Made by a program: the position numbers and the translations under genes
Assembly: GCA_964399775.1 (NCBI GenBank)
Contig: CAYNSH010000002.1
Span: 2,556 to 66,555 of the forward strand
Direction: 5' to 3'
Origin: an uncultured Verrucomicrobiota bacterium
GTDB lineage: Bacteria; Verrucomicrobiota; Kiritimatiellia; CAIQIC01; Lenti-01
DNA length: 64,000 nt
Notes under the pieces: generated by a model
What the model saw: only the letters and a program-made list of their open reading frames with translations
Databases searched by the model: none
Told to the model about the DNA's origin: nothing
Shown here: positions 23,809 to 33,300 of the stretch, piece by piece
Numbering within the stretch: the stretch's first letter is position 1
Layout: every line of letters begins with the position of its first letter

Positions 23809-24154
23809 GGCTTCACCTGCTCGGCCACATGGCGTGGCCCCATCAGCCCGGGGGACTATCGCGTTGCGTCCTCCTTCAAGCCTGGCCCCTTTGACTGCAC
23901 CAGCCAGCCCTTGGAATTCACGGTGCCCCCATCCCCCGGTGCGGTGACCGTCGAAACTCCCCCAGAGCAGCCCCCGCCATCCATCGAACTCCCCGCCAAG
24001 GCCACCCGCTGGCAGCGCTTCCTCTTCCGCCTGCGCCGCCTGTTGCTGTGGTTGGTCCGCATCATCGACCAGCGCCTGGGCACCTGAGCCTCACCGCCAG
24101 GCGCCGCGGGCAGCTCCGCATCCGTTCAATCCGGACTACGTCCACTTCATCTTG

Positions 24155-24205
24155 ATTATAGTATTTATAAATAATATAATTATGCTATTTATAAATAGTA
24201 TAATT
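24155..24205. repeat. AT-rich (about 15% GC) palindromic element: two inverted copies of ATTATA(G/C)TATTTATAAATA separated by 12 bp. The core TATTTATAAATA is itself a perfect 12-bp palindrome.
   Basis: Read directly: gATTATAGTATTTATAAATAatataattatgcTATTTATAAATAGTATAATt. The 19-bp arms are inverted with one mismatch. It sits in the convergent intergenic region between the secreted-protein gene and cdaL1. Confidence 0.8.
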
Positions 24206-24352
24206 GCTTCCCTCGCCTTGCGGAATGAATAAAGGGCAGTCCCCTCGAAGGAATCTGTGAACCGATGCGGGCAAGGGTCATGGGCGGGACACGACCGGCG
24301 ACGTCCAGCCTCCGATCACTCACCGGAGCCGTTTCGTCGCGGATGCGCCCGG

Positions 24353-25000
24353 TCAGCGGTGCAGCACCTGCACACGCGCATTTTCGTATTCGGCCATGAA
24401 CTGCTTCAGCACGTTCCAGCAGCTCGCGCAAGGCGGCAAGTCCGTGTACAGCTTGACCCGCATGCGGATCGAGGTGTCGGGCAGGCGCGCGACCAGATCC
24501 TCGATGATCTTGTATTCCGTATCCACGGAGCGCACCCAGCAGTTGCTCCCATCCACCACATCATGCTGGTTGACGCATAACACATGGTAGCGCCCGTTCT
24601 CCGGCTTCAGCGAGATGCCCTCCAATTGCTTGGCCATTGGGGAGGAATAGCCATCCAGGCTCTGGATGCCGCTGTGGGCGAAGTATTCGGTCTTGTCCAG
24701 GTCCTTGGCTCCGACCACGGCCCAGGCGAAATTATTCCGCTCGCGGTACTGTGCGGGAAGCCTGGCGCGGCAGTGTTCAATGCGCTCCAGCGCCGCCCCA
24801 TCCCGATCCGCACGGATCTTTCGCAACGTCGGCTGGCGAACGATCCGCTCCTCCACCTGCGGCGGTTCCGCCGCGCGGGACAACGACGGCATGGCGACCG
24901 CCGCCAGGGCCAGCCAGATCGCCCAGCCCAGGACACGCCATCGCCAGATATCGCTTTTGCGCCGGATTCCGGCGCCCGGCCTTTGCTTACGGCCACTCAT
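24353..25000 (-). CDS. Secreted protein, paralog 1 of a tandem pair; C-terminal cytidine-deaminase-like PCxSC motif
   Basis: Signal peptide WAIWLALAAVAMPSLSRA|AEPP. Conserved with the neighbouring paralog: NNFAWA, EYFAHSGIQSLD, DTEYKIIEDLVARLPD, PPCASCWNVLKQFMAEY. Confidence 0.55.
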   Translation of the reverse strand: MSGRKQRPGAGIRRKSDIWRWRVLGWAIWLALAAVAMPSLSRAAEPPQVEERIVRQPTLRKIRADRDGAALERIEHCRARLPAQYRERNNFAWAVVGAKDLDKTEYFAHSGIQSLDGYSSPMAKQLEGISLKPENGRYHVLCVNQHDVVDGSNCWVRSVDTEYKIIEDLVARLPDTSIRMRVKLYTDLPPCASCWNVLKQFMAEYENARVQVLHR

Positions 25001-25619
25001 AGATCACTTCCATTTCCACATTGGTATAGATCGCCATGAACTGCTCCATCACCCCCCGGCAGCTCAGACAGGGCTCCAGATAGGTGTACATCAAAATGCG
25101 GCCTTCAACGGACGGGTCCGGCAGCCGCGCCGCGATGTCCTCCAGGATCTTGTATTCCGTGTCAAACCACCGCGGGATGGCGTTGGGGCCGCCGATATTG
25201 CCCTCAAAATCCACGAACAGGGTCCGGAAGCGGGCGGTTTCCCGGTCCGGCTGCGGGGAGATGCCTCGGATCTTCCGCGCCGCGCGCGACGACAGATTGT
25301 CCAGGCTCTGGATGCGGCTGTGCGCATAGTATTCCTTCTTCCGCAGTCCCGGAATATCCGCCCGCGCCCAGGCAAAATTGTTCATCCTCTGGAACTCGGC
25401 CGGCAACCGGTTGCGGTAGTACCAGACCCGTTTCTTGGCCTCGGCATCCTCCCGGCGGTCCACATGGCGCACGATCGGCTCGCGCGCCTCCGGCACGGGC
25501 TCTTCCCCGGCCCGAACCGCCATCGGCGACAGCGCCGCCAACATCAGCCCAACCCGCACCGGCCATCGCCAGGATCCATGCCCTACACGCCAGCGCACTC
25601 TTGTTTTCACTGGTATCAT
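24987..25619 (-). CDS. Secreted protein, paralog 2 of the tandem pair
   Basis: Signal peptide VRVGLMLAALSPMAVRA|GEEP. Shares NNFAWA, EYYAHSRIQSLD, DTEYKILEDIAARLPD and EPCLSCRGVMEQFMAIY with paralog 1. The CRGVMEQF segment resembles CDA PCGxCRQVIxEL. Confidence 0.55.
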   Translation of the reverse strand: MIPVKTRVRWRVGHGSWRWPVRVGLMLAALSPMAVRAGEEPVPEAREPIVRHVDRREDAEAKKRVWYYRNRLPAEFQRMNNFAWARADIPGLRKKEYYAHSRIQSLDNLSSRAARKIRGISPQPDRETARFRTLFVDFEGNIGGPNAIPRWFDTEYKILEDIAARLPDPSVEGRILMYTYLEPCLSCRGVMEQFMAIYTNVEMEVIYEWP

Positions 25620-25711: not shown

Positions 25712-26581
25712 TCACCGCGCAAAGCGAGAAAAGTCGCGCTCGAGAGCCGCGACATCGTCCCACCCGTAGATTTCCAGCAGGGCCCGCAGCGCGTCATCGC
25801 CGGCGATCACCTTCTGCAAAAAGGTCTCCCACATTTCGCGCGGATACCGGATCAGCAGGAATCCCACCAGAAACTGGCTCGTGTCGTAAAACAACCGAAT
25901 ATCCCCCGCTGCGGCGGGATAGGTTTGCGCGTGGAGCAGCCGTTCCAGCGGCATCCGTCGGGGCAGGCGTCGGAATGTCGCCCGCGGATTCCAGCCCAGG
26001 CCGCGCGCCGCGCGGTAGGCGAATTCCCCGTAGTATTCCGCCAACCCTTCGTTCAGCCAGAGCGGAAGGCGCACGGGCAAAAAGCGATTGAACACCAGAT
26101 GCGTCATCTCGTGGGCCAGCACGCCCATGCGCTCCGACGGAGCCCGGCCCACCTCCTGCAACATCATCACGTTCCCGCGCACGAAGGAGGCCGCCCACGG
26201 CTCCACCCCCGGCATGCCGGCCACGATGGCCTGCCAGTCGCGGGGATCGCGAAAGATGAAGATGTGCGAGAGTCCAGGGCTGACCCGATCTTCCAGGCCG
26301 GGCAGATCCGCCGAGATGGCCTCATAGAACTGCTCGCCCATTCGCGCCACGCGGGCGGCGAACATCTTCTGGTCGTAGTGCAGAACGAAATGCGCCGTGC
26401 GCAGGTGTCGCCAGCGATACGCCGGATTCTCCAGCAGGGCGACATCCACCGGCAGCAACCCCGCGCGCGGAACCTCGTCCAGCGGAATATCCTGGGTCCC
26501 TTCCGGATTCGCCCATGCCGGCCGCAACAGGACCACCACCATCCCCAGCACGGCCCAGATGCCCCGAATCCAACGATTCAT
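25712..26581 (-). CDS. Secreted zinc metallopeptidase, Peptidase_MA_2-like (HExxH...NEGLAEY)
   Basis: Real start [24 protein letters not shown] (signal). HEMTHLVFN is the HExxH motif; [10 protein letters not shown] carries a candidate third zinc-ligand Glu. The upstream 160 aa of the track ORF are antisense to yifB. Confidence 0.6.
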
Positions 26582-28122
26582 GCCCAGTAGCTTCGGTCGA
26601 GGGAGCGGTACTGGATGGCCTCGGCGATGTGGTCGGCCGCGATGGAATCGCTGCCGGCCAGATCGGCAATGGTCCGGGCAACCTTGAGAATGCGGTCGTA
26701 GGCGCGCGCGCTCAGGTGCAGGTCGGACATCGCCGCCTTGAGCAAGCCTTCCGCATCGCCGTCCAAGACGCAGTTTTTGTGGACATCCTTGGCGCGCATG
26801 GTCGCGTTGCAGTGGACCGCCGGACGCCCCTTGTGGTGGGCAAAACGATCGCGCTGGATCGCCCGCGACGCCACCACCCGCTCGCGGATCGCCGAAGAAC
26901 TCTCGCCCTTTTCCAGCGACGACAACTGCTGGTAGTTGATCGCCGGCACCTCGACATGGAGGTCGATCCGATCCAGCAGCGGCCCGGAAATCTTGTTGCG
27001 ATAGCGCTGCATCTGGACGGGCGTGCAGCGGCACACCTTCTGGCTGTCCCCCCAATGGCCGCACGGACAGGGATTCATCGCCGCCACGAGCATGAAGCGG
27101 CAGGGAAAGGTCACCGAGGCCGCGGCGCGCGAGATCGTGACAGTGCCGTCCTCGAGAGGCTGGCGCATCACTTCCAGCACGTTGCGGTGGAACTCGGGCA
27201 GTTCATCCAGGAACAGCACCCCGTTGTGGGCCAGGCTGACCTCGCCGGGCATCGGGTGGGTTCCGCCGCCCAGAAGCCCCGCATCGGAGATGGTGTGATG
27301 CGGCGCGCGGAACGGGCGGCCATGCACCACCGCCTGATGCGCCGGCAGCGCGCCCGCGATGCTGTGGATCTTGGTGGTCTCCAGCGCTTCTTCCAGCGTC
27401 AGCGGCGGCAGGATGGTCGGCACCCGCTTGGCCAGCATCGATTTCCCGGTTCCCGGCGGGCCCACCAGCAGGATGTTGTGCCCGCCGGCCACGGCCACTT
27501 CGATGGCCCGCCGCGCAAATTCCTGGCCTTTGACATCGGCATAATCGTCGTCATAGAGCGTACCGCCGGCAAACGCCGCCTGCATATCGACCTGGCAGGG
27601 CGGAATGGCCTTGCGGCCTTCGATGAAATCGGCGGCTTCGCGCAGGTTCGCCACGGGATACACCGACAGCCCTTCGACCACGGCGGCCTCTTCGGCGTTC
27701 TCGGGCGGCACCAGGATTCCCTTTCGTCCCTCGGCGCGCGCCCGCAGGGCAATCGGCAGCACCCCGCGCACGCGCCGGACTTCTCCGCTCAGCGCCAACT
27801 CGCCCACCACGGCATAGGCCTCCAGGCGGCCGCCATCCAACTGCTCTTCAGCCGCCAGCATCCCGAGCGCGATCGGCAGGTCGAAACTGGGCCCCTCCTT
27901 CTTGATGTCCGCCGGCGCCAGATTGATCGTCATGCGGTTCATCGGCGGCGCAAACCCGGAATTGACCATGGCGGTCCAGACGCGGTCCGAACTTTCCTTC
28001 ACCGCGGCATCCGGAAGCCCCACCACCACGATCGTGGGCGTGCCATGCCCGGAATTGACCTCGATTTCAATCTCGTAGGCGTCCACTCCGAACACCGCGC
28101 CTGAATAGACTTTGGAAAGCAT
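26578..28122 (-). CDS. comM: YifB/ComM family Mg-chelatase-like AAA+ ATPase
   Basis: [22 protein letters not shown]..., Walker A (GPPGTGKSM), LFLDELPEF, and the characteristic Cys cluster ([15 protein letters not shown]). Confidence 0.9.
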
Positions 28123-28224
28123 GGCGGGATTCAATCCTTACGCATGGTCCGGCTTGCAAGCATCACGGGATACCGTTTCAAATCGAGCCGCCGAAAGCAA
28201 GTTCCGGCTCCGGAAAAGGCGCCC

Positions 28225-28428
28225 CTGTGTGGAAAATAGTTTTCCATGCCGTGGAAAAACCTGCCATATGTTTTCCATGCCGTGGAACAATCCGTCTCCC
28301 ATTTTCCATGCTGTGGAATACATTTTTCCATGCCGTGGAAAAATCAGCCGATATTTTTCCATGCTGTGGAAAATCCGGGCCGCGATTTTCCATGGCGTGG
28401 AAAACGGGTTACCACTGTGTGGAAAATT
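28225..28428. promoter_or_regulatory. Array of six 19-bp palindromes TTTTCCA-N5-TGGAAAA, flanked at both ends by the same half-site pattern; half-sites match the DnaA-box consensus TTWTNCACA on the bottom strand
   Basis: TTCCA...TGGAA unit centres fall at about 28250, 28281, 28312, 28333, 28364 and 28395, giving spacings of 31, 31, 21, 31 and 31 bp. The flanking half-site TGTGGAAAA occurs within a conserved CTGTGTGGAAAAT at 28225-28237 and 28415-28427 (TTTTCCACA on the bottom strand). A patch with roughly 40% GC follows at 28425-28470. Confidence 0.8.
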
Positions 28429-28471
28429 GAAGATTTATTGATGCCTATCGATTCTTGACGTAACTCGATCC

Positions 28472-30199
28472 ATGCGCCCTCCCCGCAAAGCCTTTATTCT
28501 CGCCGCCGGACTGGGAACCCGCCTGCGTCCGCTCACGCAGGAAACGCCCAAGCCGATGCTGCCGTTTTGGGACCGCCCCATGCTGGCCCATACCCTCGAA
28601 CGCCTCGCGGACTGGGGCGTGCGCGAAGTCCTGATCAATCTGCACCATGCCCCCGGTCCCCTTGTCGCCTATCTGGCCAGCCAGCCCTTTCCATCGCTCC
28701 GCGTCAGCGCCGTATTCGAGCCCGTCATTCTCGGCACCGGCGGCGCCCTGCGCAACGCCGCCTGGTTTCTTGACCAACCCTTCTGGCTGGTCAATGCCGA
28801 TGTCGCCGCCGATCTCGATCCCGCCCCGCTGATCCGCGCCTGGCAGCGTCCGCGCCCCCTGGCCGCCTGCTGGCTCACGTTCGATGCCGGTCCCCGCACC
28901 GTACGCTGCTCCCGCGGCTTCATCCGCGATTTCCACGATCCCCGGCGCGGAACCGCCACTTTCTGCGGACTGCAGATTCTCGACGCGCGCATCCTGCCCT
29001 TCATCGCTCCGGAGGGCTTCGACACCCTGATTGCCGCCTATCAGCGGGCCCAGCGAAAAGGCCACCGCATCGCCGGCGTCTGGGTCCCCGGCTCCTTCTG
29101 GGCCGATATCGGCACGCCCGCGCAGTACCTCCAGGCCCATCGCGATTTCGCGGCTCGAAACGGAGGATCCGACCGAAGCTTCCCCCTCCCCGCCGCCGCC
29201 GTCCTCACCCCGCGCGAGCAGCGCGGCCTGCGGCAAGCCCATCTCCTGCCCGAATCCCCCCTTGCGCCGATCGAGGTTCTGCCCCCGCGCGGCTCCGCCC
29301 GCGAGTTTTTCCGGCTACCCATCCGCGACCCCCGATATTATACTATTTATAAATACCATACACCCTCCGTCCTCTTGGTCCGTTGGAGTCCGCAGCGGCC
29401 GGAAAACCGCCTGCATGCGCGGCATACGCGCTTTTTGGAGTCCATCGGCATTCCGGTCCCGCGCCTGCTGCTCGATGCGCCCCGCCACCGCCTGCTGGTC
29501 TTTGAGGACCTCGGCGGCGAGACCCTCCAATCGCAACTCCCCACCCTGCCGCCGCCTGCGATCCGTCGGCTTTATCTGCGCATTCTCGACATCACCCTGC
29601 GCCTGCATTTGCATGGCTGGCCCGCCGCCCGCCAGCAGGGACTTCGCCTCATGCCGGGATTCAACGCGGAGCTCTACGCCTGGGAACAGGCCTACTTTAT
29701 CGACAACGTCCTCCGCTGCCGTCCGGGCCTTTCGGAAACCACCCTCGCCGCCGTCGCCAACGAGTTGCAATCCGTGGCCCGACGACTGGCCACTTCCCCG
29801 CAAGCCTTGATTCACCGCGACTGGCAGTCCAGCAACATCCACTTCCGTGGGACGCAGCCCGTCATGATCGATTACCAGGGCATGCGCCGCGGTCCCGCCG
29901 CCTATGACCTGGCCAGCCTTTTGTGCGATCCCTACGCCGATCTCGATGAACCCCTGCAGCGCTCGCTGCTGCGCACCTACACCCGCCGGCACCCGCAAGG
30001 CCGCGAGATCGAGGACGCCTTTCTGCCGGCGGCGGTCCAGCGCCTGTGCCAGGCCCTCGGCGCCTATGCCGTGCTCTCCCGCAAGCCCGGGCTGGAATTC
30101 TTCAGGCGCCACGTCCCCGCCGCCACCCGCCAACTCCAGCGCGTCCTGAAACGGCTGCCGCTTCCGGAATTGACGCGGGTGATGTCCGGGGAGGCGTAA
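28472..30199 (+). CDS. Bifunctional-looking fusion: N-terminal sugar-1-phosphate nucleotidyltransferase (MurU/RmlA-like) plus C-terminal aminoglycoside-phosphotransferase-fold sugar kinase (AmgK-like)
   Basis: N-terminus AFILAAGLGTRLRPLTQETPKPMLP (GxGTRL NTP-transferase motif). C-terminus GSAREFFRL...HRDWQSSNIHF...MIDYQGMRRGPAAYDLASLL (APH/choline-kinase-like catalytic loop and DxxG region). Confidence 0.6.
   Translation: MRPPRKAFILAAGLGTRLRPLTQETPKPMLPFWDRPMLAHTLERLADWGVREVLINLHHAPGPLVAYLASQPFPSLRVSAVFEPVILGTGGALRNAAWFLDQPFWLVNADVAADLDPAPLIRAWQRPRPLAACWLTFDAGPRTVRCSRGFIRDFHDPRRGTATFCGLQILDARILPFIAPEGFDTLIAAYQRAQRKGHRIAGVWVPGSFWADIGTPAQYLQAHRDFAARNGGSDRSFPLPAAAVLTPREQRGLRQAHLLPESPLAPIEVLPPRGSAREFFRLPIRDPRYYTIYKYHTPSVLLVRWSPQRPENRLHARHTRFLESIGIPVPRLLLDAPRHRLLVFEDLGGETLQSQLPTLPPPAIRRLYLRILDITLRLHLHGWPAARQQGLRLMPGFNAELYAWEQAYFIDNVLRCRPGLSETTLAAVANELQSVARRLATSPQALIHRDWQSSNIHFRGTQPVMIDYQGMRRGPAAYDLASLLCDPYADLDEPLQRSLLRTYTRRHPQGREIEDAFLPAAVQRLCQALGAYAVLSRKPGLEFFRRHVPAATRQLQRVLKRLPLPELTRVMSGEA
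29337..29355. repeat. Third copy of ATTATACTATTTATAAATA, embedded in frame inside the fusion CDS (it encodes YYTIYKY)
   Basis: It is identical to the reverse complement of copy 2 at 24186-24204. It forms a 27-bp AT island within otherwise GC-rich coding sequence. Confidence 0.8.
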
Positions 30200-30200
30200 T

Positions 30201-30249
30201 CCGAGATCCGAGGTCCGAGGTCGGAGGTCAGAGGTCAGTAGTCAGTAGT
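30201..30249. repeat. Imperfect 7-bp tandem repeat x7 (CCGAGRT/CAGWAGT) immediately 3' of the fusion gene stop
   Basis: ccgagat ccgaggt ccgaggt cggaggt cagaggt cagtagt cagtagt, read directly. Confidence 0.7.
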
Positions 30250-30272
30250 CGGGCGCGGCAGCCACCGAACCA

Positions 30273-30291
30273 CCGCGCTCAGCGAGCGCGG
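30273..30291. terminator. GC-rich hairpin (8-bp stem CCGCGCTC / GAGCGCGG, 3-nt loop) between convergent genes; possible bidirectional terminator
   Basis: The inverted repeat was read directly. There is no U-tract, so intrinsic-terminator status is uncertain. Confidence 0.3.
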
Positions 30292-30342
30292 CTACAGCGC
30301 GCGCCCCTCCCCCCCGTTGTTACCACCCGTGGGCTGCTCTCT

Positions 30343-33300
30343 TTACTCCGGCATGACTTGGGTGGCGGTGGGGGCGTTGTCGGTATTGTAGCTGAGCGCT
30401 TCACCGGTGCCGTTGTACTCGAATAGCTTCACGTGGTAGGGCCATCCAGGAGTCAGACCGGTGATGGTGACGGAGTCTTCCGGGCCGAGATAGCATGCCT
30501 TGTTGGCCGGGAACGGGGTCAGGGGAGCCGCCCCTGGGAAGTAGGCATTGATGCCCGGAGGGACCATGCCATCCGTGGGGGTCCAATTCACGGCATACCC
30601 CTCGCGGACGATCAGCAGGCGTCCATCGCCGCCGCCGTTCTCCCACGTGACGGTCAGGGTGGACGGGTTGACGACGGTCAGGGATAGCGCCGTGGGTGGA
30701 GCGGTGGGCGGAGGCGACAGGATGGACCGCTTGGCGGCCGCGGGCTCACCGCCGATGAGGTAATTGAGGCTGTCGCCGCTGCCATTATACTCGAACACCT
30801 GGAAGTGATAGGTGTTGCCTTGCGTGAGGCCGCTGACGTTCACAGAACTGCCATTCCCCACATACACCACATAATTGCCGTTGCCCAGTTCGGGTCCCTG
30901 CCCGAAGGCCGCACTTGCATAGTAGTTGCTTCCTCCGATCGGATTGACATCCACCGGGCCGTTTTTCCGGGCCATCACGATGCGTCCGGCCCCGTTGCCG
31001 CTGGTCCACGACAGCGTCAATTGGTCTTGCCCGACGTTGCTGAACTGCAGGTTGGAGGCCTGGGTGGTCGGCAGGGATGCGCGGGTGGTCTGGCTGCCCT
31101 CCGGCGGAGTGCCGGTGGCGAGGTAGACGGTTTGCGCGCCGACCCCCTGATACTCGTAGATGACGAAGTGGTAGGTGGTCACGGGGGCCAGGCCGGACAA
31201 GGTGAAGCTGTCCCGATTTCCGTCGTATACGATCTTATGCCCGCCGCCCATATCGGTGGCGGTGGCAAAGTTGTTCTGGACGTAGGGAGCCGGGTCGAAT
31301 CCGTTCTCCGGAATCCAACTGACCGGCGAGCCCTGGCGAGCCACGACGATGCGGTTTTGGCCGTCGCCGCGATCCCAGTTCAGGCGCATGAAGGTATCGC
31401 CCACGAAGCTGAAGGACAGATTGGCGGACGGCAGGCGCAGCGCGGTGGAGGGTTCGATCCAGCGCGTGGGCAGGCTGTAGAAGTCGCGCGGGTGATAGCG
31501 CCAGGTCCAGTTGCCGGAGCCGGGCGGGTCTTGCTTGTCCGGCGGGGCCTGGTTGCGCGACACGATCACGATGACATCGTTGGGCTTGAAGTAGCCGGCG
31601 CCGACGAGCGCGTCATTGGCCACAAACCGGAAGACCCCGTTTTCAGCCGCATAGATGGTGCTGCCGGAGCGGGGGCTCTTGGTGGCCGTATTCCAGGTAT
31701 AGATATGGTCGGCAAAGTCCTTGTATCCCTTGGTCAGGCCGGCTTCGAGGAGCCCCATTTCGCCCGGGGTGGCGGCGACGGGCAGTCGCAGGGCGACCAG
31801 GTTGTAGGAGAGGATTTCGGGGGCGATTTCGACGCGGCCGGGCTGGTTGGGATCGAAGACGGCGGCGCGCCCGGTCTGGATGACCTGGCTGAAGCCATTG
31901 GTGGGCACCCGGAGGACGGGCGACCAGATCATGGCATCGAGTTGGAGCGGCCCGCCGGTGCTGGGATCGGTTTGATCGATATCTTGGGCGGTGGTGTGCC
32001 GGTAGTATTCCGGCAGGGGATCCGGCAGGGTGATGGAGAAGCCGCGGTTGAAGAAGTCCTCCGACTGGACGACATCGGTGACATCGATGCCGCCCGCCTT
32101 CAGCCACTTGTTATCGGTGGTGAGGTAGTAGGCCTCGCCGAGGAGGGCATTGACGCCCGGGTTGTAGAATTCGACCACGGTGCCGCCGCTGTCCGGCATG
32201 GCGGAGGTCCCGCCGGGGAAGACATTGGTTCCGCCGAAGACCGCGGCAAAGGTGTTGGTATAGGGAACGCCATGCAGCGCCACGTAGTTGTGGCCCCGGG
32301 ACAGGATGACGTTATGGAGGGCATAGACCTCCTCCGTGACCATGGGCCGCTGGGGCTTGCCATCCACTTCGCGCAGCCACCGATCCTTGTAGGATGCGCG
32401 GTAGAACCGCATCTGGCCGCGGGTGCGATGCTGCCCACCGTCATCCACGAACCAGTTGGTCTGGATGGTGGCGACCTTCAGCCAGGTGCTGTCGGGCGTT
32501 TCCTGGAAGCGGGGGGCATCCCAATAGATCAGGTCGTATTCGCGGGAAACGGTCCCGATGCCATCCTTCTGGCCGGCGGCGATCCACCCCATGGCCACGG
32601 CGTTGTCGGCGTCCGTGTGCGTGAAGGCTTCATGTTCCCCGAAGGCCTCCTGGGCCTTGGCCTTGGCGACCACCCAGCCGCTGGTGATGGCAAAGCGGAT
32701 GGTATTGTTGGTGGCCCAGCCATGGACATTGGCAGACCCTTCGTTGCCGGCGGCGTCGACGCCGACAATGACCACGGCGTATTCCTGGTCGAAGTCCAGG
32801 TCGTAGAGCCGGATGGTGTCCTGGCTCATATCCGACAAGGCATCATAATAGGTCGGATTTGCGGAGGGATCCGTGATGGACGAGCCCCTCATGACGCTGG
32901 GCCAATTCGTGTAATGCCCGGTGGCGATGAAGTTCGTGAAGATGAATGCGCTGCCGGAGCCCACGCCCGGGTCGCCTTCCGGCACATCCATGCCGTCGTA
33001 GGTGCCGTAGTAGATCTTATAGCTGCCCCATGGCGACAGGACGTCGCGATCGGTGCTGACCTTGGTGGGATGGTTGTCGTGCCCCGGATCGTCCGGACCA
33101 ACGCCCTCGGTGCTCCATTCCAGATCGAACTGGGTGGTGGGGTCATCGACGGTGTCGGTGGTGACGGAGAGCGGTTGGCTGGCGATTCCCACCGCGGTCG
33201 GCGGGGTGACATCGTAGGCGATGTAGAACGGCTTGGCCGGGCCGGCGAGCCGGTCGCCGGCGCGGTTGTTGTCGGCATCGACCGCGAAGAGGTATTGCGG

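What the first reader, a model, noticed from the sequence alone, without database searches (positions are those of the whole stretch)
28225..28470. Phased array of six 19-bp palindromes with DnaA-box-like half-sites plus an adjacent AT-rich patch: candidate oriC or iteron/operator array
Directly visible: the unit TTTTCCA-N5-TGGAAAA (7-bp perfect arms) occurs six times. Centre-to-centre spacings are 31, 31, 21, 31 and 31 bp, about three or two helical turns, so all sites sit on one face of the helix. The array is bracketed at both ends by the half-site TGTGGAAAA, conserved within CTGTGTGGAAAAT. On the bottom strand the half-sites read TTTTCCACA, which matches the DnaA-box consensus TTWTNCACA perfectly in the two flanks and in unit 5. 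Units 1, 4 and 6 read TTTTCCACG, one mismatch. Immediately downstream, 28425-28470 is about 40% GC against a background of about 67%, a plausible DNA-unwinding element. The array lies in the divergent region between yifB/comM and the MurU/AmgK-like gene. In such a GC-rich genome this density of identical AT-biased palindromes is far beyond chance. It implies cooperative binding of a dimeric protein. The candidates are DnaA at a chromosomal or island origin, a plasmid-like Rep at iterons, or a dedicated repressor of the flanking operons.
Basis: partly seen in the sequence, partly recalled or inferred. Interest (0 to 1): 0.85.

Follow-up and report, generated by a model that had tools for sequence, protein, structure and literature searches.

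The report
Dispersed phased palindrome array, not oriC
The six-palindrome array is real, but it is one copy of a repeat family found between unrelated genes throughout Kiritimatiellia genomes; it is most likely a docking platform for an unidentified dimeric DNA-binding protein, not a replication origin.

Summary
Window 28228-28426 carries a left half-site, six 19-bp units and a seventh degenerate unit. Four units match TTTTCCA-N5-TGGAAAA perfectly and two have one mismatch. Start-to-start spacings are 22,31,31,22,31,31,22, which is an 84-bp module repeated about twice.

The oriC, iteron and dedicated-repressor readings are not supported. The same unit, with the same 22/31-bp spacing rules, occurs in at least 268 arrays in Kiritimatiellia MAGs and metagenomes. 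Many contigs of a single genome or sample carry it, always next to unrelated genes. Arrays lie in tandem, divergent and convergent intergenic regions in proportion to how often those regions occur. No fetched locus contains dnaA or dnaN. comM and murU orthologues in relatives do not have an array at this junction.

Unit spacings fit a 10.45-bp helical repeat, so all units face one side of the DNA. The centre base is G or C in 97% of sites. The inner bases differ between lineages. Array orientation ignores the direction of transcription. Orthologous loci differ in unit number.

Best reading (inferred): a docking array for an unknown symmetric dimeric dsDNA-binding protein that oligomerises along one face of the helix. 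It resembles REP/BIME and NIME elements in distribution but is unusual in its strict phasing and conservation across lineages. The binding protein and the function remain unknown.

The parts
28228..28236 (-). Left flanking half-site TGTGGAAAA (bottom strand TTTTCCACA), inside CTGTGTGGAAAAT at 28226-28238. It lies in register 22 bp before unit 1, as a unit that has lost its left arm.
28240..28258 (.). Unit 1, TTTTCCATGCCGTGGAAAA (perfect arms)
28271..28289 (.). Unit 2, TTTTCCATGCCGTGGAACA (one mismatch in the right arm)
28302..28320 (.). Unit 3, TTTTCCATGCTGTGGAATA (one mismatch in the right arm)
28324..28342 (.). Unit 4, TTTTCCATGCCGTGGAAAA (perfect), 22 bp after unit 3; starts the second 84-bp module
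28355..28373 (.). Unit 5, TTTTCCATGCTGTGGAAAA (perfect)
28386..28404 (.). Unit 6, TTTTCCATGGCGTGGAAAA (perfect)
28408..28426 (.). Degenerate unit 7, GTTACCACTGTGTGGAAAA (two mismatches in the left arm), 22 bp after unit 6.
28228..28426 (.). Whole array: an 84-bp super-repeat (22+31+31 bp, about 8 helical turns), 2.1-2.4 copies, 45% GC
28427..28471 (+). AT-rich stretch (35% GC) between the array and the murU/amgK start codon. It is most simply the promoter/leader of that gene. It has no DnaA-trio run and no sigma-70 consensus match.
28126..28227 (-). About 100 nt between the array and the comM start (ATG at 28125-28123). It contains a short GC hairpin followed by a T-rich tail at 28215-28202 on the minus strand, a match at chance level.
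26578..28125 (-). comM/yifB (Mg-chelatase-like AAA+ ATPase); flanking gene, not part of the element
28472..30199 (+). MurU/AmgK-like fusion (NTP_transferase + APH); flanking gene, not part of the element

Best explanation
The array is one locus of a Kiritimatiellia-wide family of interspersed intergenic arrays.

Shown:
- The unit is a 19-bp palindrome with invariant outer arms TTTTCCA/TGGAAAA, a G or C at the centre, and lineage-specific inner bases.
- Units are placed 22 or 30-32 bp apart (occasionally 42-43, 51 or 61-63 bp). All units therefore face the same side of the helix.
- Two 31-bp steps plus one 22-bp step make an 84-bp module of about eight turns. The window holds two such modules between the divergent comM and murU/amgK genes.

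Inferred mechanism:
- Each unit binds a symmetric homodimer of a conserved, still unidentified dsDNA-binding protein.
- Dimers on neighbouring units contact each other along one face, or wrap the DNA, to form a 100-200-bp nucleoprotein block.
- Such blocks sit in the gaps between transcription units. They would act there as architectural or boundary elements, or as global regulatory elements.
- At this locus the block would occupy most of the shared comM-murU control region.

It is not a replication origin, not a plasmid iteron set, and not an operator private to these two genes.
For: Multi-copy and restricted to the clade:
Almost all are MAGs labelled Kiritimatiellia, 'Lentisphaerae' or Verrucomicrobiota. 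Up to 17 contigs (27 arrays or single sites) come from one MAG.
- A metagenome scan for the window's own subtype also hit its limit, at 118 loci. None is homologous to the window, and at least 14 contigs come from one sample.

Unit shape:
- In 455 sites the arms are 98-100% conserved and the centre base is G or C in 97%.
- Palindromy runs right to the centre in the AGSCT and ATSAT lineages.

Same-face placement:
- The 616 neighbour spacings are 22 (159), 30-32 (411) and 42-43 (23), plus 33 others: 19-21 and 23 (11), 29 and 41 (2), 51 (3), 61-63 (7).
- The best-fit helical repeat is 10.45 bp, with mean cosine 0.886 over 1312 within-array pairs.
- The 22:31 ratio is 109:245 in arrays of four or more units.
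- The window's series recurs elsewhere, for example in L202.

Not tied to promoters or to transcription direction:
- Arrays fall in tandem, divergent and convergent gaps at 64%, 22% and 15%, against a background of 69%, 16% and 16%.
- Three convergent cases are verified by Pfam.
- Asymmetric units face with or against flanking tandem genes 31 to 31.

Unrelated neighbouring genes.

Inherited yet variable: orthologous loci keep the array but differ in unit number, 3 against 5 and 5 against 9.

Not coding and not a known RNA: periods of 22 and 31 are not multiples of three, there is no Rfam match, and there is no terminator or sigma-70 pattern in the array.
Against: - No binding protein has been identified, and nothing here shows binding. 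The mechanism rests entirely on sequence symmetry, phasing and conservation.
- Gene calls in the fetched loci are my own crude GC-frame calls. About 15% of arrays could not be placed.
My rough estimate is one array per 30-100 kb in the window's lineage.
- One close relative shows no array in 21 kb, so the system is not uniformly dense.
- Copy-number variation and presence in phage contigs fit a selfish repeat equally well.
- In the window's lineage the right half-site is a good DnaA box, so some DnaA binding cannot be excluded.
Confidence: 0.6

Rival explanations
1. Selfish or neutral interspersed repeat, comparable to REP/BIME, Neisseria dRS3/NIME or mycobacterial MIRU. The arrays spread and expand by recombination, slippage or an element-encoded enzyme. 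They persist in intergenic DNA without a host function. Any protein that recognises them serves the element, not the host.
For: - The arrays are intergenic, multi-copy, independent of orientation, and often start within 0-60 nt of a stop codon (median 54 nt, lower quartile 16 nt).
- Unit number varies between orthologous loci, and some arrays have near-identical spacers, which indicates recent tandem duplication (L099, L158).
- Arrays are present in Mu-like and other phage contigs.
Against: - The outer arms and the G/C centre are invariant across lineages whose genomes range from 45 to 70% GC, while spacers are almost free. This points to long-term selection on a recognition site.
- Strict 10.45-bp phasing has no obvious value for a mobile element.
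- No transposase or RAYT-like gene recurs next to arrays.
- The GTAG/CGTC tag of the REP superfamilies is absent.
- This reading is not exclusive of protein binding.
Confidence: 0.2
2. Local operator. Whatever the family does elsewhere, this copy works as the shared operator through which one repressor or activator controls the divergent comM and murU/amgK promoters.
For: - The array fills 200 of the 346 bp between the two start codons. It ends 45 nt before murU and 100 nt before comM.
- In L132 and L133 an array lies 100 nt upstream of the rmlA-rmlC-comM operon.
- Where arrays face 5' ends with reliable gene calls, they lie 45-107 nt from the start codon.
Against: - The same array type flanks unrelated genes and lies between convergent genes.
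- comM orthologues in L128-L131 and murU orthologues in L121, L123 and L125 have no array directly upstream.
- No regulator gene is adjacent.
Confidence: 0.1
3. DnaA-box cluster. This would be either the chromosomal origin or a non-origin DnaA-titrating or regulatory cluster like datA, DARS or the Bacillus DnaA-box clusters.
For: - TTTTCCACA is perfect at three places and one mismatch off at four more.
- In the window's lineage the right half-site is nearly always GTGGAAAA.
- Flanking genes diverge from the array.
- Third-position GC skew changes sign from negative to positive within 2 kb.
Against: - There are many arrays per genome.
- No dnaA or dnaN was found in the window or in the first 133 fetched loci, about 1 Mb.
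- The left half-sites (TTTTCCATG) are conserved equally well although they break the critical CA of the DnaA box.
- Sister lineages with identical architecture have AG or AT at box positions 8-9.
- Spacing of 22 or 31 bp between symmetric 19-mers is unlike known DnaA oligomer arrays.
- There is no DnaA-trio run.
- The skew change sits at the border of the giant gene. murU, to the right of the array, is still -0.39, and the skew decays to slightly negative by 52-64 kb.
- The locus is not conserved in relatives.
Confidence: 0.05
4. RNA-level element. Each unit forms a hairpin in the transcript and acts as a terminator, a 3'-end stabiliser or a processing site.
For: - Many arrays start right after stop codons and must be at least partly transcribed. 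In L132 the array starts 2 nt after a stop.
- Units can form stems of 7-8 bp.
Against: - Orientation relative to transcription is random, 31 to 31.
- Palindromy extends to the centre, where no RNA pairing is possible. The arm sequence, not just the pairing, is conserved.
- The T-run precedes the stem and the A-run follows it, the reverse of an intrinsic terminator. The scan finds no terminator in the array.
- There is no Rfam match.
- Helical phasing is a property of duplex DNA.
Confidence: 0.03
5. Plasmid-type iterons, or a sopC-like centromere of an integrated element.
For: The array consists of repeated units with 22-bp and about 31-bp periods, in an AT-rich patch within a GC-rich genome.
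Against: - There is no rep, par or integrase gene in the window.
- There is no match in 72,556 plasmids.
- Dozens of arrays lie among chromosomal housekeeping genes.
Confidence: 0.02

Closest known systems
REP/BIME elements of Enterobacteria (repetitive extragenic palindromes and their mosaic arrays)
   Same: Short palindromes confined to intergenic DNA, present in many copies per genome, clustered in arrays, often just after stop codons and between convergent genes. They are known to bind host proteins (IHF, gyrase, Pol I); that binding is from my own knowledge.
   Different: - REPs are imperfect 20-40-bp palindromes carrying a GTAG or CGTC tag (PMC3733652). Here the unit is a 19-bp palindrome with TTTTCCA arms and no tag.
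- REPs differ between closely related species and are linked to RAYT transposases.
- Here the arms are constant across the sampled lineages, spacing follows a strict 22/31-bp helical rule, and no transposase is linked.
Neisseria dRS3 repeats and NIME arrays (ATTCCC-N8-GGGAAT)
   Same: A roughly 20-bp unit with conserved short inverted arms and a free centre, in hundreds of copies, organised in intergenic arrays. This description is from my own knowledge.
   Different: NIME spacers are 50-150-bp repeat segments without helical phasing, and dRS3 serves as a phage or recombinase target. Here the spacers are 3 or 12 bp and phased, and the centre base is constrained to G or C.
Mycobacterial MIRU-VNTR loci
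   Same: Tandem intergenic repeats at many loci, whose copy number differs between related strains.
   Different: MIRUs are 46-100-bp units, usually within operons. They are oriented with transcription and can encode small peptides. They are neither palindromic nor helically phased.
oriC and non-origin DnaA-box clusters (datA, DARS, Bacillus DBCs)
   Same: Clusters of sites that match TTWTNCACA, in an intergenic region.
   Different: DnaA boxes are asymmetric 9-mers bound by monomers. Here the constant element is a symmetric 19-mer whose second half breaks the box. Sister lineages replace the critical CA, copy number is far higher, and no dnaA, DnaA-trio run or sustained skew switch accompanies it.
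Phased operator arrays of oligomeric regulators (Lrp/AsnC sites about three turns apart; paired NrdR boxes 31-32 bp apart; ArgR box pairs about 21 bp apart)
   Same: Palindromic dimer sites spaced by whole numbers of helical turns, about 21 and about 31-32 bp, so that an oligomer contacts one DNA face or wraps the DNA. This is the closest functional analogy for the inferred mechanism. The spacings of the known systems are from my own knowledge.
   Different: The sequence motifs are unrelated. Those regulators act at promoters of defined regulons. Here sites lie in any intergenic gap, including convergent ones. No Lrp, NrdR or ArgR gene is implicated.
F-plasmid sopC centromere (12 tandem 43-bp repeats, each with a 16-bp palindrome bound by SopB)
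   Same: A tandem array of palindromes, each bound by a dimer, that builds one large nucleoprotein complex.
   Different: sopC is a single locus per replicon next to sopAB. Here there are many loci and no par genes.

Membership tests
Bacterial chromosomal origin (oriC) | One locus per replicon | tested here: not met
   Arrays with the same unit and spacing rules occur on many contigs of single MAGs and single samples. Loci fetched through proteins, not through the motif, show about one array per 30-100 kb.
Bacterial chromosomal origin (oriC) | Cluster of DnaA boxes (TTWTNCACA) | tested here: inconclusive
   The array has three perfect and four one-mismatch boxes. The conserved element, however, is the symmetric 19-mer. 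The left halves read TTTTCCATG, and sister lineages have AG or AT at positions 8-9.
Bacterial chromosomal origin (oriC) | Adjacent AT-rich unwinding element or DnaA-trio repeats | tested here: not met
   A 46-bp stretch of 35% GC exists, but it directly precedes the murU start codon. There is no run of three or more WAR trios on either strand. Equally AT-rich stretches occur at five places in the window.
Bacterial chromosomal origin (oriC) | Coincides with the switch in replication-strand GC skew | tested here: inconclusive
   Skew at four-fold sites is negative for all 15 genes on the left, including murU to the right of the array (-0.39). It turns +0.34 only at the border of the giant gene (30.3 kb) and decays to -0.04 to -0.13 by 52-64 kb. 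The whole replicon is not available.
Bacterial chromosomal origin (oriC) | Linkage to dnaA/dnaN or other origin-proximal genes, and a position conserved in relatives | tested here: not met
   tblastn finds no DnaA or DnaN in the window or in the first 133 fetched loci. The window's genes are metabolic or cell-envelope genes. The comM-murU junction does not exist in relatives.
Plasmid iterons or partition centromere | Adjacent rep or par gene, on a plasmid or integrated element | tested here: not met
   No such gene is in the window. blastn finds no match in the plasmid collection.
Dedicated operator of the flanking operons | Site found specifically upstream of orthologous target genes across relatives | tested here: not met
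   murU orthologues (L121, L123, L125) and comM orthologues (L128-L133) lack an array directly upstream. Arrays flank unrelated genes and lie between convergent gene pairs.
REP/BIME superfamilies | Extragenic, palindromic, many copies, clustered | tested here: met
REP/BIME superfamilies | GTAG or CGTC tag at one end of the palindrome (PMC3733652) | tested here: not met
   Units begin with TTTT and end with AAAA, and the flanks carry almost no information.
REP/BIME superfamilies | Cognate RAYT (Y1 transposase) gene flanked by repeats | not tested
   No gene family recurs next to arrays in BLAST clustering. I did not search for Y1 transposases specifically, and whole genomes were not available.
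CRISPR array | Repeats of 23-50 bp separated by unique spacers of similar length, with cas genes nearby | tested here: not met
   Repeats are 19 bp and spacers are 3 or 12 bp. No cas domains appear among the window genes scanned.
Intrinsic terminator or structured RNA | GC-rich stem followed by a U-tract, oriented with transcription, or a match to a known RNA family | tested here: not met
   No terminator pattern lies in the array and there is no Rfam match. Orientation relative to flanking genes is 31 to 31.

The most novel reading that the evidence does not exclude
The arrays are loading or nucleation sites for a clade-specific, abundant chromatin-like protein. This protein would assemble on 84-bp (eight-turn) modules and mark the borders of transcription units across Kiritimatiellia chromosomes and their phages. 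That would be a sequence-programmed form of bacterial chromatin or insulator that has not been described. Its recognition code would co-evolve with the protein between lineages (AGSCT, ATSAT, YRSYG).
Probability: 0.25. Interest if true: 0.85.

Novelty: new variant of a known kind. Interest (0 to 1): 0.6.

Why it matters
For this finding, the origin call should not be propagated. Anyone using the array to place oriC in this MAG would be misled.

More broadly, the comparison reveals a repeat family that I could not find described. Four full-text searches returned nothing relevant. The family has an unusually clean set of rules:
- invariant 7-bp arms;
- a G or C at the centre;
- lineage-specific inner bases;
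- spacings of 22 or 31 bp that hold register at 10.45 bp per turn over arrays of up to nine units.

Such rules point to a specific, conserved and probably abundant DNA-binding protein. Its identity and role (boundary, roadblock, global regulator or nucleoid organiser) are unknown, in a class of bacteria with almost no molecular genetics. The variation in unit number also offers ready-made strain-typing markers for this class.

Tried and rejected
- ROK-family regulator as the binding protein. Arrays lie upstream of a ROK gene in three loci, and Thermotoga ROK operators are 23-bp palindromes with TTTCC/GGAAA arms (PMC3553997). The protein, however, aligns end to end with glucokinases, and its apparent N-terminal extension is non-coding leader. 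Rejected.
- Autoregulated binding-protein gene next to arrays. BLAST clustering of about 450 flanking proteins found only orthologous housekeeping genes.
- Synteny test of the comM-murU junction. The junction is unique to this genome.
- Exact look-up of my 515-aa ComM translation failed. The database protein is 514 aa.
- Open-frame test for intergenic location. It is uninformative in these GC-rich genomes, because 86% of random windows also have an open frame.
- Rfam, sigma-70 and terminator scans found nothing in the array.
- Plasmid collection: no match.
- Literature: searches for the motif, for Kiritimatiellia repeats, and in the K. glycovorans genome paper found no description.
- Extending the GC-skew analysis beyond the window. 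The contig has 33 kb more on the right, but I could not fetch it with the tools allowed.
- A true oriC of this clade for comparison.
Full report
**1. The observation**

The sequence at 28200-28480 holds six 19-bp units starting at 28240, 28271, 28302, 28324, 28355 and 28386.
- Four units match TTTTCCA-N5-TGGAAAA exactly. None is expected in 100 shuffles of the window.
- Units 2 and 3 each have one mismatch in the right arm.
- The spacings are 31,31,22,31,31.
- CTGTGTGGAAAAT flanks the array on both sides.
- The right flank is part of a degenerate seventh unit (28408-28426) that lies 22 bp after unit 6. The left flank is a half unit in register 22 bp before unit 1.
- The full series is therefore 22,31,31,22,31,31,22. 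Tandem Repeats Finder reports an 84-bp period with 2.1-2.4 copies.
- The DnaA-box matches are as stated.
- The AT-rich patch is 35% GC against a local background of 63-66%.
- The flanking genes are ComM/YifB and a MurU/AmgK-like fusion.

**2. The unit is not unique to this locus**

I scanned one genome per species for two adjacent units, using the pattern TTTTCCA-N5-TGGAA, 3-25 nt, TTTTCCA-N5-TGGAA.
- All but two chance-like hits (an Azoarcus and a Bacteroidia MAG) come from MAGs labelled Kiritimatiellia/Kiritimatiellae, Kiritimatiellales, Tichowtungia, Pontiellaceae, 'Lentisphaerae' or Verrucomicrobiota.
- Single MAGs contribute many contigs: 27 arrays or single sites for CAISWQ01, 20 for JBFWJN01 and 11 for CAIVKH01.

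A second scan, of metagenomes, used the window's own subtype (TTTTCCATG...).
- It also hit its limit, at 118 loci.
- None is homologous to the window by blastn.
- One sample, Ga0334882, supplied at least 14 long contigs.

By subtype it very probably holds for this organism's population as well.

**3. Anatomy of the family**

Unit sequence:
- In 455 sites from the first scan, the outer arms are 98-100% conserved and the centre base is G or C in 97%.
- The inner bases are lineage-specific: AGSCT in some MAGs, ATSAT in others, and Y-R-S-Y-G/R in the window's group.
- In the first two types the palindrome runs right to the centre.
- In the window's type most units are slightly asymmetric (TTTTCCAT...GTGGAAAA). 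All such units within one array point the same way.

Spacing, pooling 268 arrays and 616 neighbour spacings:
- 22 bp occurs 159 times, 30-32 bp 411 times and 42-43 bp 23 times.
- The other 33 spacings are 19-21 and 23 bp (11), 29 and 41 bp (2), 51 bp (3) and 61-63 bp (7).
- The helical repeat that best aligns all units within arrays is 10.45 bp, with mean cosine 0.886 over 1312 pairs. The values are 0.13 at 10.0 bp and 0.06 at 11.0 bp.
- A 22-bp step overshoots two turns by about as much as two 31-bp steps fall short of six turns. The module 22+31+31 = 84 bp therefore restores register.
- In arrays of four or more units the ratio of 22-type to 31-type steps is 109:245.
- The commonest architectures are 22,31; 22,31,31; and 22,31,31,22. 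L202 has the window's exact series.

Spacers:
- They carry almost no information. The only pattern is a GC-rich first half and an A-rich second half.

**4. Where the arrays sit**

Orientation of neighbouring genes, using my own GC-frame gene calls:
- In the first set, arrays lie in tandem, divergent and convergent gaps 61, 21 and 14 times.
- In the second set the counts are 48, 15 and 11.
- The background across all gene pairs in the loci is 69%, 16% and 16%.
- Convergent placement is real. In L072 the array lies between adenosine deaminase and a ferredoxin. In L116 it lies between a WecG-STAS protein and a chorismate mutase. In L088 it lies between an RdgC-like protein and DUF386. In each case Pfam matches confirm the orientation.

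Position relative to gene ends:
- The median distance from the upstream stop codon is 54 nt and the lower quartile is 16 nt.
- In L132, which has database gene calls, three-unit arrays bracket the rmlA-rmlC-comM-glycosyltransferase operon. One lies 2 nt after the preceding stop and 100 nt before rmlA. The other lies 19 nt after the last stop and 66 nt before the next gene.

Neighbouring genes are unrelated:
- They include FtsH, AlaS, PheS, EngA, a glucokinase, an ArfB-like factor, DegT, amylases, radical-SAM and ABC-transporter genes, and sulfatases.
- In AGSCT-type genomes there is one array in front of each of three consecutive sulfatase genes in L003.
- BLAST clustering found no recurrent neighbour apart from orthologues.

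Orientation of the asymmetric units relative to flanking tandem genes is 31 to 31.

**5. Evolution**

- Orthologous loci from different samples keep the array and its flanks but differ in unit number: three units in L203 against five in L244 and L220, and nine in L158 and L150 against five in L225.
- Some arrays have near-identical spacers, which indicates recent duplication (L099). Others, including the window's, have diverged spacers.
- Nine IMG/VR contigs match. Several carry genuine phased arrays, including a Mu-like element (portal and protease I in L257) and a contig with a terminase (L253).

**6. Tests of the origin reading**

- tblastn finds no DnaA or DnaN in the window or in the first 133 fetched loci, about 1 Mb.
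- The window encodes PlsY, glycosyltransferases, a ClC channel, GltB/GltD, an isoamylase, an amidohydrolase, an inositol monophosphatase, two toxin-deaminase paralogues, ComM, MurU/AmgK and a giant PATR/fn3 protein.
- The source contig is ERZ27252308:k141_187532, 99,493 bp.
- In relatives with 86-88% identical ComM, the gene lies inside an rml operon with 10-12-nt gaps and has no array directly upstream. murU orthologues have other neighbours.
- GC skew at four-fold sites, read on the plus strand, is negative for all 15 genes to the left of 30.2 kb whatever their coding strand. This includes murU, to the right of the array, at -0.39.
- The skew turns to +0.34 exactly at the 3' end of the giant gene. 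It then decays to -0.04 to -0.13 by 52-64 kb. The sign change is therefore neither at the array nor sustained. The rest of the replicon was out of reach.
- There is no run of DnaA-trios. Equally AT-rich stretches occur at five places in the window.
- The DnaA-box resemblance covers the seven arm bases shared by all lineages. The critical CA at positions 8-9 is absent from the left halves here and from both halves in the AGSCT and ATSAT lineages.

**7. Other readings tested**

- Iterons or centromere: there is no rep or par gene and no plasmid match.
- RNA element: there is no Rfam match and no terminator pattern. The T-run precedes the stem and the A-run follows it. Orientation is random with respect to transcription. 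Palindromy reaches the centre, and the arm sequence rather than the pairing is conserved.
- Coding repeat: periods of 22 and 31 nt are not multiples of three.
- CRISPR: the repeats and spacers are far too short.

**8. Most likely mechanism (inference)**

Several features together are the signature of a site read by a two-fold symmetric protein dimer on duplex DNA, with neighbouring dimers interacting on one face:
- symmetry to the centre;
- a constrained central G·C pair;
- arms that stay invariant across genomes of 45-70% GC while spacers drift;
- inner bases that change by lineage;
- indifference to transcription direction;
- register at the solution helical repeat.

The recurrent four-unit, 84-bp module suggests a defined oligomer, for example four dimers, or a short filament. 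Occupancy of the gaps between transcription units suggests a boundary, roadblock or global regulatory role. It does not suggest gene-specific control. At this locus two modules would cover most of the shared comM-murU control region.

Confidence:
- I put about 0.95 on 'member of a dispersed family, not an origin'.
- I put about 0.6 on the protein-platform mechanism.
- A selfish REP-like repeat is the main rival and is not mutually exclusive.

**9. Comparison with known systems**

- In distribution, the family resembles REP/BIME, Neisseria dRS3/NIME and MIRU-VNTR elements.
- In inferred mechanism, it resembles phased operator arrays of oligomeric regulators (Lrp/AsnC, NrdR, ArgR) and the sopC centromere.
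- It fails the REP tag criterion (PMC3733652). It shares no motif with the others.
- Four literature searches and the K. glycovorans genome paper gave no description of it.

**10. Limits**

- All evidence is computational.
- Gene calls in most fetched loci are crude.
- Taxon labels are those of the records.
- One relative shows no array in 21 kb.
- The binding protein is unknown.

Noticed in passing
window 30343-64000 (-), continuing beyond the window: A giant gene. The open frame in the window is 11,215 aa, and the database gene call on the source contig is 13,359 aa. It contains PATR (autotransporter-associated beta-strand) repeats, many fn3 domains, a lamin-tail domain and a CBM_4_9 domain. 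It fills more than half of the window.
   Followed up: partly
window 30200-30400, and across 30343-63990: GC skew at four-fold degenerate sites (plus strand) jumps from -0.39 in murU to +0.34 at the 3' end of the giant gene. It then declines steadily to slightly negative values toward the 5' part of that gene. This is either a gene-specific codon bias gradient or a local strand-bias anomaly. I have no explanation.
   Followed up: partly
window 24353-25619 (-): Two adjacent paralogous genes (215 and 210 aa) of the BURPS668_1122 toxin-deaminase family. An AT-rich gap (24124-24234) lies next to them, and a 289-aa Peptidase_MA-like gene lies between them and comM. This may be a polymorphic-toxin cassette.
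   Followed up: no
L257 648-769 and 14356-14468; L254 3427-3507; L253 2784-2948: IMG/VR phage-like contigs carry genuine phased arrays of the same family. L257 and L254 come from one contig with a Mu-like portal and protease I. L253 has a terminase large subunit. Phages or prophages of this clade therefore share the element.
   Followed up: partly
L003 3698-6860: In an AGSCT-type MAG, three consecutive sulfatase genes each have their own two- to four-unit array in the short gap in front of them.
   Followed up: partly
L203 2618-2698 vs L244 4944-5077 and L220; L158 366-633 and L150 vs L225 346-470: Orthologous loci from different metagenomes differ only in the number of units (3 against 5, and 9 against 5). 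The arrays could serve as VNTR-type strain markers.
   Followed up: yes
L128 5590-5703: A relative that has no array in 21 kb carries a different repeat. It is a 29-nt palindrome-containing unit (AAAACATCGGAGTTTATAAAGTCCGATAA), present twice 85 bp apart, upstream of a MarR/TrmB-like gene. It is probably that regulator's own operator.
   Followed up: no
window 28202-28215 (-): A short GC hairpin (TTCCGGAGCCGGAA) followed by a T-rich tail lies in the comM leader between the array and the start codon. The number of such matches equals the chance expectation, but similar GC hairpins follow arrays in L132 and L125.
   Followed up: no
class-C arrays in general, e.g. L012 3985-4056, L116 1808-1879, L132 8371-8442: Arrays of the window's lineage are polar modules. 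A symmetric unit (TTTTCCAC-N-S-N-GTGGAAA) is followed after 22 bp by asymmetric units (TTTTCCAT...GTGGAAAA) at 31-bp steps. The same three-unit module recurs at several loci of one genome and across genomes.
   Followed up: partly
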